From the NCBI GenBank assembly GCA_000165345.1, contig CM000435.1, positions 864,001 to 928,000 on the forward strand: a stretch of 64,000 bases of DNA, read 5' to 3'. Positions within the stretch are counted from its first letter, which is position 1, and each line of letters opens with the position of its first letter. This document shows positions 59,201-64,000 of the stretch, in pieces. The position numbers are program-made.

Positions 59201-62200
59201 GTATATCATATTTGTATTTAAAATAATCTTTCCTGAATTTTCGGAATCATTCGATTTGCTGGTTATTAAATGTTTACACAACAAATTTGACAGTATTTTT
59301 TCAATAATAATTTCACCAAAGCCTTCAGTATTACATGTACATTCTTGCTCAATTTTCCGTGTCAAATGTTCTAAAACACCTAAAATATAATTAGTAAGGT
59401 CAGCTACATTGCTCCTTGAATGAAGAAACTCCACCCAGTCAGAAAATATGACATCCCACTCCTGAAAGTATGCTAATTCCTCGAGTGAAAATTCTTGAAT
59501 TATCTTATAAAGTGAGTATTGTGATTCTAGATCTATTTTTGATTCTAGAATCTCATTTTCACTTTTGATTTCACTAAAAAAATTTTTGTTATCTGGGCTG
59601 TTTGGACCACCACTAAATATTCCTCTTCCTCTTAATCTAAACTGTAAAAAGTCAGTGTTATCTCCACCCATTTCATTTTCGTTCATTTCAAGCTCTTATT
59701 AGCGCTTACGGACTTATACTCTTAACTCGTGGCACCTTCTGTGAAACTATTAAATACTAAATTATGTTGAGCCAATATTCTAATTCTTTATCTATATAAA
59801 TATATAAATATATATCTATATATATTATTTTTAAATTTATTAGTTAATTTCAAAAATTACATACACAGATTTAACATGTATTAGGCGCCAATTTGGCGTC
59901 CATTCCACACAAATTTGTTATTGTCTCTGTCAAGTTAACATGCGTTATAATAAAGTGATAAAACTACACACAAAGATAACGATTGAAAATATCAATTGAT
60001 TGCATTAATGATTATTGATGAACCTGTTGAATTAGTTTCTCACATTAAGGCAATATTTCACTTTCTAGGGGGGATCAGTGTGATAAATACAAATGATGGG
60101 ATTGAAATTTCAATAATGAAGTATGTATATTGTTAGTTTCATACTAAAAAAAAATAAGAAACTAATCAATCAATTTCTAAATATTAATCAACTTTTCTCT
60201 TATATAATTAGAGTTAGTCTTGAAGACCCTAATGCTTCAAAAGGTTTGTATTGCTTGACGCTTATGCGTATTTATATAGATAAACTAATAAACAACTTTA
60301 GATGATTCAGTTTCGCTTGCTTTAATTGAAGAAAGGATTAATAATATTCAAGGAACGGACCCGAAGTTAAAGCTAATGATTTCGAAAATGTTGCCTGTAA
60401 GTTTTCAGTATTGTGCAAGTTATTATTTAACGCCTAATTAGAAATTATTATCAAAATGTATACATGAACAAGGCCGACTTTATGAAGATGGAAGAGTAGT
60501 CTATTTTAGTTTTGACGAATTTATTGATTCTTTAAGAGAGGAATGCAAGCTCCTTGAACTTGAATAGTCATATTCATTAATTATTTTAGAATATTCCTTA
60601 TCCAAACAGCTTTAACTATTAATCTTCTACCCAAAAATTAGCTCAAAAAATATGATTAGGATGTTCAAAATAATGAGTGGAACTAAAAATGTTTTTTTAC
60701 TTTAAATTGGGTCGTTTCTCCACATAAAACTTACATCTTAAATAAGTTCTTATTGCATATAAAAATATAGTAATCTGGTTTCTAGCTGTTTCACCGTATA
60801 TAGGTTTGTCAAGACCATCTGTGGGAATAAAACAAAGTAAAGAAAACCAATAAGCGTAGAAGAAAAATGTATAGTTAAATATTTTTATTTTCAAAACTTT
60901 TCAATTTTGAACAATTGGATTACTTACACTTTCTTAAGAACCTTCTGTCATTCAATATGGCTAGTGAATTCAATGTTAAAACAACCATTTCAAACAAATG
61001 AGTGAAACACAGTGTCATATTTTATTAATTATAGCAATATGCCGATTTATTTATTTAAAATTTTTGTTTTACTTAATTTAATATTCCTAGTTAAGTCAGC
61101 CAAATCCACTTTTTGCAGCGCTGAGGGTAAATGACGGAAATTAAACTCGATATTAAAGTAAATGTTCAAAATAAAGTGATCTAGCACACAATTAACAATG
61201 GATAAGCACTAAAGTAAAAACATACATTATAAGAAAAATACGAGGCAAATTCTCACTAACTAATTGATAGCATTTAATTCAAGGCTCAAAAATATAACTG
61301 TGCCTCCGAGGTATTCTGCAACTAGAAACATTCCTGAAATTTTGTGACTGTTTAATGTCTCCCTCTAAATTATCGGAGTCTTCAAGGTGGCTGTTGGTTA
61401 AGTTTGAAATATTTCTTAAAGAACTAATTAATTCAGAATCCCCACAACCCAACTCATATGAGGAATCAAATGTGAGATTAACACTTTTTGAAATTTTTTG
61501 GCTTTTAATCTTAAACTCTTGAGAATCACTGATAGTCACTCTACGACCGATGCAACCTGAGAAGAAAGGAAGTGCATTGGAAGTTGACCCACTTGACTTG
61601 AAAGTTTTAAATGAAACGAGAGTCTTACCAATTTGTACGGATAAGTTTTCTTTTCCAAGTTTTATTGGGCGTGTGAACTCAACTAAAGATCCAAACTTAC
61701 TCTTCATATCTAAAAGGCATATCTGATAAGAACCAGCGGAATAGCAGTGCTGAAATTGAGCATGAGCCCTACTAACACTAATTTCTCCCAATCTAATATC
61801 AGAGTTATGACCCCTACCAATACAAACTGATGTACTGGTTCCACCAAAGGAAACCACAATCTGACCAATTTTTGAAGAAAAGTCTCCCTCTAGAGGAACA
61901 AGAACCAGGTATGGAAATCTAGGTCGAGGAACTCTAAATAATGGAATAAGTGTTGAACTGGAAGCATAGTTATCGATAAGTCTCAATTGAGTGGGGAAAT
62001 AAACCTTACATAGTTCGCATTCGAACTTCTTCAAGTGTAGACATGCTGGTGAATTGACCTTGCAGTTGGAGTTGGAAAGACGTGATGTCCATTTCTTGAA
62101 AAGATTGATAACTTTAAATCTCATTCGGTCACGAAAATGCAGCTGAGAAGGATCATCAGTTCCATCCTGAACTTGGATAGAATTACTTATAAAGCTCTCA

Positions 62201-64000
62201 ATAGTACTATATTCTCTTCCAGTGTGGAGAAACCATTCAGAAGGGATCTCCAGACGCGACTCAAGCCATGTTCGAAGACATTGAAGATGGACAAATTGCA
62301 TTGACCCTTTACAATCACAGGGGCAAATCAATGGATTGAGAGGCTCATTTGTATCAGTAAAACCATCAGCATCATCAGAAAGACATATCCTACAACATCT
62401 ATTAACTTTGGATTTTTGGTCACAATTTATTACTCGGTCAAATTTAGTTTGAATTTGAGCTTTTACACTAGGATTTAATACTGTTGGATCACAATCTTCA
62501 ATTTTTAGCGCTTGGTTGTCTTGGTTGTTTAAGATTTGCGAGCCGAGATCCTCGCGAGTTGCATTATTTGATGTGGGGCTTGAAGCCATAAACTTGGAAA
62601 TATCGTTTTCGCATTTAACCAAAGAATTATCCTGGAAATCACTAACTAATTTGATATCATTTCTTGAATAGTTGCTCAGCACTTTCTCTAGAATGTAGTT
62701 TGTGGAATACGCAAGGATTTCTGGCTCTTTATCAGCTTCAACCAAAGGAGCTGCTTGCAAAAAAGATTCAAAATTCGTCTGAAAATCCTGGTACCCCATT
62801 AACGTTAAGAAAGGGGCTTTAGATGACTCTTCCTTCGCAAGTGAAGATGTATTTATAATGTCATGAACCAGCATTTTACAACGACCGAATTTAAGAAGAT
62901 CTCCCTTGTTAAGCGGTATTCCAGGTGAGGACTTGGGAGCCACTAACCAAACTTTATTATCTTCCTTATATTGACTTCTTCCTTTACTTGAACTAGACTT
63001 TGGGAGAGGATTGAGGCAAGCGCCTGTACCATGACCAGATGCTGATGAATATTGAGAACAATGAAGACTCGATGTTCTTAATTGCCTATTAATATCTTTA
63101 ATAACTTCTACAAACCAGGAGTTCTTAAATAAATATAGCCTAAGTATTGGCACAAACTCCTTGCCAAAGTCCTGAATATTACTTATTATTGTTCTATTTA
63201 TTCCATGCTTCATATTCTGATCTGATTCCTGGTCCAAATTGTTACAAAGCTTCATAGTTTCATCCAATTCTGGCTGGACAATGAGTTGCCCGGTCTCATT
63301 TTCTATAAAAATGATATATGAACATTGCGTATTATCTATCGATAGAGTCTGATTAAACTTTGTTTTTTTCTCATAATCATATAACCCATGAGATTCTCCA
63401 GACGATGTTGTTGACTCTATCAACACAGAAATCCCACTTCCTTTTGAACCAAACCTCATTACTTCAAAGCAATAATTCAAAGCCTGATGTATGAGCTTTA
63501 TCAAAAAGGAGTAATCCAAAGTTTATGTACTTTGTTTTTATATCCTGAATAATATATCAAAATTGCCCTTTCAACATTAGTACAACGGATCCTTTAAATC
63601 AATTTTTATTAATTATTTATTCCACACAATAAGGCCCCACTTGGTTTGGCGCCACAAGTTGGCAGAAATGCCATTCACAGTTCCTCGTCTTCACAGACAT
63701 ATATGTCGCAGTATAAATTATCTATTAATAGTTTACTTACACACTAGATTAATTTTATGGTTGCAAGAAAATAGTAATTTATAAAGTTATATTAGTCTTT
63801 ACAAACTATTTTGAAACTTAAACTTATATAGATTTGAAGTTTTCCTACATTACGCTAACTGCTAGTATAAATGTATATATTATATAATTACTTAGTTGTA
63901 TAGTTTGAAATAGAAACTACTAGAATGATTTAAATCTTTCTAGTGCATTTCTAGTAACAGTTTTCTTAGATGCTTTGGCCGTTCTAGTTGGTGAGTTGAA

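What the first reader, a model, noticed from the sequence alone, without database searches (positions are those of the whole stretch)
61279..63519. E3-like protein combining a MARCH-type RING-CH finger (with a ~90-aa insertion inside the finger) and an FHA phospho-Thr-binding domain
FHA+RING ligases such as CHFR/RNF8/Dma1 place the FHA N-terminal to a classical C3HC4 RING. Here a membrane-ligase-type C4HC3 RING-CH precedes the FHA. The RING-CH itself is split: CRICL...CPCDC...VHLQCL...[~90 aa]...CELCK. It could be a phospho-dependent E3 of novel architecture, or the insert may hide an unrecognised intron. The reading frame stays open through the insert, but its composition is atypical.
Basis: partly seen in the sequence, partly recalled or inferred. 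Interest (0 to 1): 0.5.

Follow-up and report, generated by a model that had tools for sequence, protein, structure and literature searches.

The report
Annotated Cryptosporidium RING-CH/FHA ubiquitin ligase
This is a real but already annotated Cryptosporidium parvum gene for a soluble ubiquitin-ligase-like protein (RING-CH finger followed by an FHA phospho-threonine reader) that belongs to a family found across alveolates; the long stretch inside the zinc finger is a genus-specific, protein-coding loop expansion, not an intron.

Summary
There are 86 residues between H-x2-C and the last C-x2-C.

The protein is an exact match to C. parvum EAK90393.1 / CPATCC_003622, named [quoted passage not shown]. 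The architecture is therefore already annotated. The same RINGv-then-FHA order occurs in Toxoplasma, Plasmodium, Eimeria, gregarines, chromerids, Perkinsus, dinoflagellates and ciliates.

In about 105 family members this loop is 24-34 aa, which is Doa10-like. Only the 11 Cryptosporidium orthologues have 76-89 aa, so the net insertion is about 50-60 aa.

The insert is coding:
- dN/dS is 0.07-0.19, with third-position bias.
- It contains genus-invariant residues.
- Its GC content matches the rest of the gene.
- It has no credible splice sites.

Two further points: there are no transmembrane segments, and a family-wide N-terminal domain has a degenerate FHA-like fold.

The most likely function is a soluble, phospho-dependent E3 ligase, but this is untested. 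Interest is low.

The parts
61279..63459 (-). Complete single-exon CDS, 726 aa plus stop codon (stop at 61279-61281). It is the C. parvum gene annotated as 'Ssm4 ring finger fused to FHA domain'.
   Evidence: ORF. (exact match to EAK90393.1, QOY40733.1 CPATCC_003622, KAL5367728.1 and WKS79100.1). (nine of the eleven orthologues start at the same Met; C. andersoni and C. serpentis have 11 extra residues).
62815..63432 (-). N-terminal conserved module, aa 10-215. It is a beta-sandwich with a degenerate FHA-like fold, interrupted by two poorly predicted loops (about aa 64-102 and 130-168). Family-wide motifs are SHGLYDYE (aa 23-30) and vWlv..pG.pL..GDl.KfGR (aa 171-193).
62410..62814 (-). Poorly conserved linker, aa 216-350, predicted disordered over most of its length.
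   Evidence: pLDDT is below 50 for aa 232-333; many indels; dN/dS 0.22-0.28.
62254..62394 (-). RING-CH first part, aa 356-402. It holds zinc ligands 1-6 (C356, C359, C381, C383, H391, C394) and the central helix with W398.
   Evidence: RINGv E 2.9e-10, profile positions 1-38; ligands invariant in 96 sequences, W398 present in 94 of 96; the family profile is closest to the Doa10 RING-CH 2m6m (E 3.3e-16).
62050..62253 (-). Cryptosporidium-specific expansion of the loop between zinc ligands 6 and 7, about aa 403-470. It has a variable core (aa 410-442) and a conserved amphipathic helix, RDRxRFKVINLFKKWxSRFS (aa 443-462).
   Evidence: the loop is 76-89 aa in 11 Cryptosporidium orthologues and 24-34 aa in about 105 others, including the Cryptosporidium paralogue (27 aa); invariant I405, P406, W409, R443, R445, S462 and N469; dN/dS is 0.29-0.35 for the core and 0.08-0.14 for the conserved half; predicted helices at 407-413, 417-427 and 442-461, with pLDDT 53-74.
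61993..62049 (-). RING-CH second part, aa 471-489. It comprises the strand PACLHLKKF followed by ligands 7-8 (C481, C484) and the conserved E482-L483-x-K485...P489.
61597..61932 (-). FHA domain, about aa 510-621. It carries G548-R549, S563-R564-x-H566 and D584. The canonical S-x-N-G-T motif is S587-K588-F589-G590-S591 in this protein (S-K-F-G-T in most of the family).
61282..61596 (-). C-terminal Ser-rich tail, aa 622-726, predicted disordered. It ends in a conserved RHSYIFEP.
   Evidence: pLDDT below 50. R719, H720 and Y722 are invariant in the genus.

Best explanation
The locus is the C. parvum orthologue of an alveolate-wide family of soluble proteins with three modules: a degenerate FHA-like N-terminal domain, a Doa10/Ssm4-type RING-CH (C4HC3) finger, and a canonical-fold FHA domain.

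The most likely mechanism is as follows. The RING-CH recruits a ubiquitin-charged E2. The FHA domain docks onto phospho-threonine epitopes made by a parasite kinase. Phosphorylated targets are thereby ubiquitinated. This is functionally analogous to RNF8, CHFR and Dma1, but it is built from a different finger subtype in the reverse order.

The 86-residue spacer is a translated, genus-specific enlargement (about 50-60 aa) of a loop that is already long (about 26 aa) in the whole family and in Doa10. It sits between the central helix and the last zinc knuckle. It is probably a helical excursion that leaves the cross-brace intact, and it may add a lineage-specific docking or regulatory surface.

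Shown here: domain identities, ligand conservation, distribution, the coding status of the insert, and the absence of transmembrane segments.

Inferred, not shown: E3 activity, phospho-dependence and any role of the insert.
For: - Pfam RINGv and FHA both score above their curated cut-offs.
- The sequence is identical to an annotated C. parvum protein.
- About 120 homologues carry both domains, in the order RINGv then FHA in all 10 diverse members tested.
- All eight zinc ligands, W398, E482, L483, K485 and P489 are (near-)invariant in 96 sequences. The FHA residues G548, R549, S563, R564 and H566 are (near-)invariant too.
- The family profile is closest to the Doa10 RING-CH (E 3.3e-16) and MARCH8 (E 4.8e-14).
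- The AF2 model has pTM 0.67 and is confident on both halves of the finger and on the FHA. The finger superposes on K3 over 57 of 60 residues at 2.5 Å, and the FHA matches solved FHA domains.
- Loop length is 76-89 aa only in Cryptosporidium orthologues, against 24-34 aa elsewhere.
- Loop dN/dS is 0.07-0.19 with third-position bias.
- The insert's GC equals the gene's, and there is no credible splice site.
- No hydrophobic 19-mer reaches transmembrane level in 14 members.
Against: - There is no experimental evidence for E3 activity or phosphopeptide binding in any family member. Six literature searches found no functional study.
- The canonical FHA Asn of S-x-N-G-T is Phe in 93 of 95 members, so peptide recognition may be atypical or phospho-independent.
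- Pfam aligns only 38 of 47 RINGv positions in this protein.
- The insert is modelled at only pLDDT 53-74, so its structure and its position relative to the E2-binding surface are unknown.
- No RNA data could be consulted directly.
Confidence: 0.7

Rival explanations
1. The 'insert' hides an unrecognised intron. The mature protein would then have a normal short RING-CH loop.
For: Only Cryptosporidium orthologues carry the long spacer. Two in-frame GT..AG pairs with a weak GTAATT donor exist.
Against: - dN/dS for the loop is 0.19, 0.13 and 0.07, with substitutions concentrated at third positions.
- Eleven genus-invariant residues lie in the loop between the family-wide helix residues and the last zinc pair, including R443, R445, S462, N469, P471 and C473.
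- The frame is open in 12 sequences down to about 35% identity. By my own estimate, about 60 random codons at this composition stay open with probability about 0.02 per lineage.
- GC is 0.39, the same as the flanking exon sequence and not AT-enriched.
- Both candidate introns would delete invariant residues.
- Four independent deposited annotations keep the unspliced 726-aa model.
Confidence: 0.02
2. The finger is a pseudo-RING. The insertion or other changes have abolished E2 recruitment, and the protein acts only as a phospho-reader or scaffold through its FHA and FHA-like domains.
For: The insertion lies directly after the central helix, which in RING domains contributes to E2 binding (established knowledge). 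The FHA is the most constrained region (dN/dS 0.02-0.04). No activity data exist.
Against: The eight ligands and the RING-CH signature residues W398, E482, L483 and P489 are as conserved in Cryptosporidium as in relatives with a short loop. RING N-part dN/dS is 0.05-0.09. AF2 assembles a K3-like finger.
Confidence: 0.12
3. It is a membrane-bound MARCH/Doa10-type ERAD or trafficking ligase, as the finger subtype and the 'Ssm4' name suggest.
For: The closest solved finger is that of Doa10/Ssm4. One dinoflagellate homologue was auto-named MARCHF7.
Against: The maximum Kyte-Doolittle 19-residue average is 1.14 in this protein and at most 1.46 in 13 other members, with no segment above 1.6. No Doa10 TD domain or other Pfam hit was found. 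The model shows only beta-sandwich, finger and disordered regions. A separate Doa10 orthologue, cgd2_2410, is listed for C. parvum by Ponts 2008.
Confidence: 0.04
4. It is an active E3, but the FHA binds partners independently of phosphorylation. In this reading the family-wide Asn-to-Phe change marks a non-canonical FHA.
For: S-K-F-G-T replaces S-x-N-G-T in 93 of 95 members. The N-terminal FHA-like domain lacks all the phospho-binding motifs.
Against: The phosphate-contacting Arg (R549) and Ser (S563), and H566, are invariant or near-invariant. Some established pThr-binding FHA domains also lack this Asn (own knowledge, e.g. NIPP1; not tested here).
Confidence: 0.12

Closest known systems
Doa10/Ssm4 (yeast) and MARCH6/TEB4 RING-CH finger
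   Same: It is the best sequence match of the family profile (2m6m, E 3.3e-16; 8pd0, E 1.3e-14). It shares the C4HC3 ligand order, the PC-x-C-x-GS...H-x2-CL-x2-W motif, and an extended loop (about 22 aa in Doa10 against about 26 aa family baseline) between ligands 6 and 7.
   Different: Doa10 is a 14-TM ER membrane protein with a TD domain. This protein has no transmembrane segment, carries FHA modules, and in Cryptosporidium has a loop three times longer.
Soluble MARCH proteins (MARCH7/axotrophin, MARCH10) and the viral K3/MIR and MARCH8 fingers
   Different: No MARCH protein carries an FHA domain, and their 6-7 loop is about 10-12 aa. The alveolate family has its own N-terminal module.
FHA-RING ligases RNF8, CHFR and Dma1/Dma2
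   Different: Those proteins have one canonical FHA N-terminal to a C3HC4 RING-HC. Here the canonical FHA is C-terminal to a C4HC3 RING-CH, and the N-terminal FHA-like domain lacks the GR / SxxH / N motifs. There is no sequence-level orthology, and the family's FHA is closest to actinobacterial FhaA/GarA/OdhI domains.
Deposited orthologues and paralogue within the alveolate family (for example Toxoplasma 'forkhead-associated domain-containing protein' P0013, Plasmodium 'zinc finger protein, putative' P0051/P0060, C. ryanae paralogue P0043)
   Same: They have the same three-module architecture and the same invariant residues.
   Different: All of them have a 24-34 aa loop between ligands 6 and 7. 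Only this Cryptosporidium orthologue group has 76-89 aa.

Membership tests
RING-CH / RINGv (Pfam PF12906) | Score above the curated Pfam gathering threshold | tested here: met
   40.6 bits against a cut-off of 21.6, E 2.9e-10. The alignment covers profile positions 1-38 of 47 only.
RING-CH / RINGv (Pfam PF12906) | Eight zinc ligands in C4HC3 order, with the conserved Trp after ligand 6 | tested here: met
   C356, C359, C381, C383, H391, C394, C481 and C484 are invariant in 96 sequences. W398 is present in 94 of 96.
RING-CH / RINGv (Pfam PF12906) | Compact cross-brace fold that brings ligands 7-8 next to ligands 3-4 | tested here: met
RING-CH / RINGv (Pfam PF12906) | E2-dependent ubiquitin ligase activity | not testable with these tools
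   Needs an in vitro ubiquitination assay.
FHA domain (Pfam PF00498) | Score above the curated Pfam gathering threshold, and the FHA beta-sandwich fold | tested here: met
FHA domain (Pfam PF00498) | Conserved phospho-threonine-binding residues: Gly-Arg, Ser-x-x-His, and the Asn of S-x-N-G-T | tested here: inconclusive
   G548-R549 and S563-R564-x-H566 are present and (near-)invariant. The Asn position is Phe589 in 93 of 95 family members.
MARCH / Doa10 membrane-associated RING-CH ligases | Transmembrane segments (at least 2 in MARCH1-6, 8, 9 and 11; 14 in Doa10) | tested here: not met
   The maximum 19-residue Kyte-Doolittle mean is 1.14, with no segment above 1.6. The same holds in 13 relatives.
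MARCH / Doa10 membrane-associated RING-CH ligases | Doa10 TD domain or other Doa10-specific regions | tested here: not met
   No Pfam hit other than RINGv, FHA and a sub-threshold Yop-YscD_cpl match. The PDB profile match to Doa10 is confined to the finger.
FHA-RING checkpoint ligases (RNF8 / CHFR / Dma1) | A canonical FHA N-terminal to a C3HC4 RING-HC | tested here: not met
Alveolate FHA-like / RING-CH / FHA family (the annotated 'Ssm4 RING fused to FHA' architecture) | Three collinear modules with the family-invariant motifs SHGLYDYE, GDxIKLGR, CRIC...PCxCxGS..HxxCL..W...CELCK and GRGH...SVSRxHA...D..SKFGT | tested here: met
   The sequence is identical to the deposited C. parvum member.

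The most novel reading that the evidence does not exclude
The family is an uncharacterised, alveolate-wide class of soluble phospho-dependent E3 ligases. It has a cryptic second (degenerate) FHA-like module, and at least two paralogous lineages in apicomplexans and their relatives. In Cryptosporidium, one paralogue has evolved a conserved helical module inside the RING-CH itself. That module would act as a lineage-specific regulatory or docking element, for example gating E2 access or binding a parasite-specific partner. A functional insertion of this kind within a RING cross-brace would be unusual.
Probability: 0.25. Interest if true: 0.45.

Novelty: already known. Interest (0 to 1): 0.2.

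Why it matters
The practical result is a clean-up. The flagged 'novel architecture' is a gene that has been annotated with exactly this domain combination since the first C. parvum genome, so it needs no discovery claim.

The residual value is modest:
- The deposited label 'apicomplexan specific architecture' is too narrow, because ciliates, dinoflagellates, Perkinsus and Vitrella have the same protein.
- The family has an unannotated N-terminal FHA-like module.
- The Cryptosporidium orthologue carries a selectively maintained insertion of about 60 aa inside the zinc finger.

No member appears to have been studied experimentally. The family remains a candidate link between kinase signalling and ubiquitination in parasites of medical importance. 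That is a lead for parasitologists rather than a surprise for the field.

Tried and rejected
1. Cryptic intron in the insert. Rejected by codon-position and dN/dS analysis against three species, a splice-site scan, composition and genus-wide invariant residues.

2. Membrane ligase. Rejected by a hydropathy scan of 14 members.

4. Literature on function. Six full-text searches found only the catalogue paper of Ponts et al. 2008. Its supplements do not mention FHA. Two Toxoplasma papers list 'FHA domain-containing proteins' (TGGT1_267600, TGME49_262780), but I could not link those IDs to this family. The Templeton et al. 2004 comparative paper, which probably introduced the annotation, is not held.

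5. Foldseek against AFDB50, to test for the architecture outside alveolates. The library was unavailable.

6. A rough NJ tree separates a Plasmodium/Eimeria/dinoflagellate group, which includes the Cryptosporidium paralogue, from a Toxoplasma/gregarine group and from ciliates. It places the query clade on a long basal branch. Assigning the query to the Toxoplasma group therefore rests on best hits and the shared HLQCLRTW motif, not on the tree.
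Full report
**What is there**

The window is AT-rich (about 28-39% GC in 2-kb windows). The finding's coordinates are a mechanical ORF on the minus strand, 61279..63519, with a TTG start and 746 aa. The first ATG is at 63459 and gives 726 aa.

This 726-aa sequence is an exact match to Cryptosporidium parvum EAK90393.1, QOY40733.1 (CPATCC_003622), KAL5367728.1 and WKS79100.1. The deposited name is [quoted passage not shown]. Members of the same 90% cluster come from C. hominis, C. meleagridis and C. tyzzeri.

**Check of the observation**

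- Pfam RINGv scores 40.6 bits against a cut-off of 21.6 (E 2.9e-10). It aligns only profile positions 1-38 of 47, because the last C-x2-C lies beyond the long spacer.
- Pfam FHA scores 30.6 bits against a cut-off of 20.7 (E 4.7e-7).
- In 726-aa numbering the ligand pattern is C356-x2-C359-x19-C381-x-C383-x7-H391-x2-C394-x86-C481-x2-C484.
- In a 96-sequence family alignment all eight ligands are invariant. The RING-CH signature residues W398, E482, L483, K485 and P489 are nearly so. The distal CELC is therefore the true fourth zinc pair.
The insert has GC 0.39 and GC3 0.37, against 0.36-0.39 and 0.23-0.34 for the rest of the gene. Its amino-acid make-up is similar to the other low-complexity parts.

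**Distribution**

A search of about 5.8 billion proteins gave 156 hits, and nearly all of those listed carry both PF12906 and PF00498. Orthologues with 34-97% identity and full coverage exist in eleven Cryptosporidium lineages.

More distant members are found in:
- Toxoplasma, Besnoitia, Neospora, Eimeria, Cyclospora and Plasmodium;
- several gregarines and squirmids;
- Vitrella, Perkinsus, Symbiodinium and Amphidinium;
- the ciliates Stentor, Tetrahymena, Halteria, Stylonychia and Protocruzia.

Every named hit is an alveolate. In ten diverse members the order is always RINGv then FHA, about 50 residues apart. Cryptosporidium has a second, paralogous copy (C. ryanae P0043). Ponts et al. 2008 already list RING/FHA among Plasmodium E3 architectures (PMC2408969). 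I found no functional study of any member.

**The 'insertion'**

Across about 105 non-orthologous family members, the spacer between H-x2-C and the last C-x2-C is 24-34 residues. This includes the Cryptosporidium paralogue at 27 residues. In the eleven Cryptosporidium orthologues and the query it is 76-89 residues.

The family baseline is itself Doa10-like. The family profile's best solved relative is the Doa10/Ssm4 RING-CH (2m6m, E 3.3e-16), which has a comparable extended loop. Comparing the loops places the extra 50-60 residues between RLEIPSEWFLHTGR and NSPACLHLKKF-CELC.

Within the genus the insert has two parts:
- a variable core (aa 410-442);
- a well-conserved basic amphipathic segment, RDRxRFKVINLFKKWxSRFS.

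Loop positions I405, P406, W409, R443, R445, S462, N469, P471, C473, K478 and F479 are invariant.

**Intron or coding?**

I retrieved the orthologous DNA of three species and built codon alignments. For the whole loop (aa 395-480):

| Comparison | dN/dS | Differences at codon positions 1/2/3 |
|---|---|---|
| vs chipmunk genotype | 0.19 | 11/5/23 |
| vs C. ubiquitum | 0.13 | 11/13/34 |
| vs C. canis | 0.07 | 19/15/44 |

The variable core gives 0.29-0.35 and the conserved half 0.08-0.14. These values fall in the same range as the other parts of the gene.

Only two in-frame GT..AG pairs have even a weak donor (GTAATT). Both would delete the genus-invariant residues R443 and R445. The frame is open in all twelve sequences, down to about 35% identity. 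The cryptic-intron alternative is rejected on sequence grounds, although direct RNA evidence was not available to me.

**Structure**

AlphaFold2 on the 96-sequence alignment gave mean pLDDT 67.6 and pTM 0.67.

- Confident regions: the N-terminal beta domain (strands at pLDDT 89-97), the first part of the finger (82-92), and aa 471-625 (mostly above 90).
- The insert: pLDDT 53-74, predicted as three helices (407-413, 417-427, 442-461).
- Predicted disordered: aa 232-333 and 631-726.

**An unreported third module**

An HMM of the first 225 residues of the Cryptosporidium proteins hits ciliate, Toxoplasma and Eimeria members in two blocks, SHGLYDYE and vWlv..G.pL.eGDlIKLGR.k.rV.

I regard it as a degenerate FHA-like fold, with moderate confidence. 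The family architecture is thus FHA-like, then RING-CH, then FHA.

**Mechanism**

Shown here:
- an intact-looking RING-CH;
- an FHA fold that retains the phosphate-contacting Arg and Ser and the structural His;
- no transmembrane segment, with a maximum Kyte-Doolittle 19-mer of 1.14;
- the strongest purifying selection on the FHA (dN/dS 0.02-0.04) and the finger (0.05-0.09).

Inferred from established knowledge of RING-CH ligases (Doa10, MARCH, K3) and FHA-RING ligases (RNF8, CHFR, Dma1): the protein is a soluble E3 that ubiquitinates targets marked by threonine phosphorylation.

Two caveats apply. The canonical Asn of S-x-N-G-T is Phe in 93 of 95 members. The insert directly follows the central helix, which contributes to E2 binding in RING domains, so it could modulate E2 access. 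Neither point can be resolved computationally here.

**Comparison and novelty**

The protein works like RNF8, CHFR and Dma1 but is not a member of that group. Its finger subtype and domain order differ, and there is no sequence orthology. Its finger belongs to the RING-CH family and is closest to Doa10, but it fails the membrane-protein criteria of the MARCH and Doa10 ligases. In lacking transmembrane spans it resembles the soluble MARCH7 and MARCH10 (own knowledge).

The gene and its architecture are already in the public record, so the finding is 'already known'. The incremental points are:
- the alveolate-wide (not apicomplexan-specific) distribution;
- the cryptic N-terminal FHA-like module;
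- the genus-specific, selectively maintained loop expansion inside the finger.

**Verdict**

The feature is real and the domains were correctly recognised. It is not novel, and the intron hypothesis is refuted on sequence grounds. The function is plausible but untested. Interest is 0.2.

Noticed in passing
window 63645-63653 (+), about 190 nt upstream of the ATG at 63459: There is a single TTTGGCGCC (palindromic core GGCGCC), resembling the E2F/DP-type motif reported upstream of many Cryptosporidium genes (own knowledge). It occurs once in the window, against 0.12 expected by chance; 9 of 100 shuffles had at least one match.
   Followed up: partly
window 42581-48409 (-), especially 46491-47490: A 1942-aa ORF contains a (GTT)~333 tandem array that translates on the minus strand to about 330 consecutive threonines. 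This explains the extreme GC and AT skew at 46-48 kb. It looks like a mucin-type glycoprotein. From memory, its size and poly-Thr blocks recall C. parvum GP900; this was not tested.
   Followed up: partly
family alignment A2, query aa 587-591 (window about 61687-61701): The canonical FHA motif S-x-N-G-T is S-K-F-G-T/S in 93-95 of 95 family members. This is a family-wide Asn-to-Phe replacement at a peptide-backbone-contacting position.
   Followed up: partly
P0043 (C. ryanae, 877 aa) and related Eimeria, Plasmodium and dinoflagellate proteins: There is a second paralogous lineage of the same three-module family. It is present in Cryptosporidium with a normal 27-aa finger loop. The window holds only the long-loop copy: tblastn with P0043 hits only 61606-62394.
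   Followed up: partly
window 62815-63432 (-), aa 10-215: The N-terminal domain drops from pLDDT above 90 in the full-length model to 66 when modelled alone. This hints that it packs against the finger or the FHA. No PAE or coordinates were available to check.
   Followed up: no
L001-L003, positions 1-1050 (syntenic loci in three Cryptosporidium species); window 63920-64000: A WD40/BING4CT (Utp7-like) gene lies immediately upstream on the same strand in all three species. In the window, an ORF on the minus strand ends near 63920 in the corresponding position; its identity was not checked. This suggests conserved synteny, with no functional link implied.
   Followed up: no
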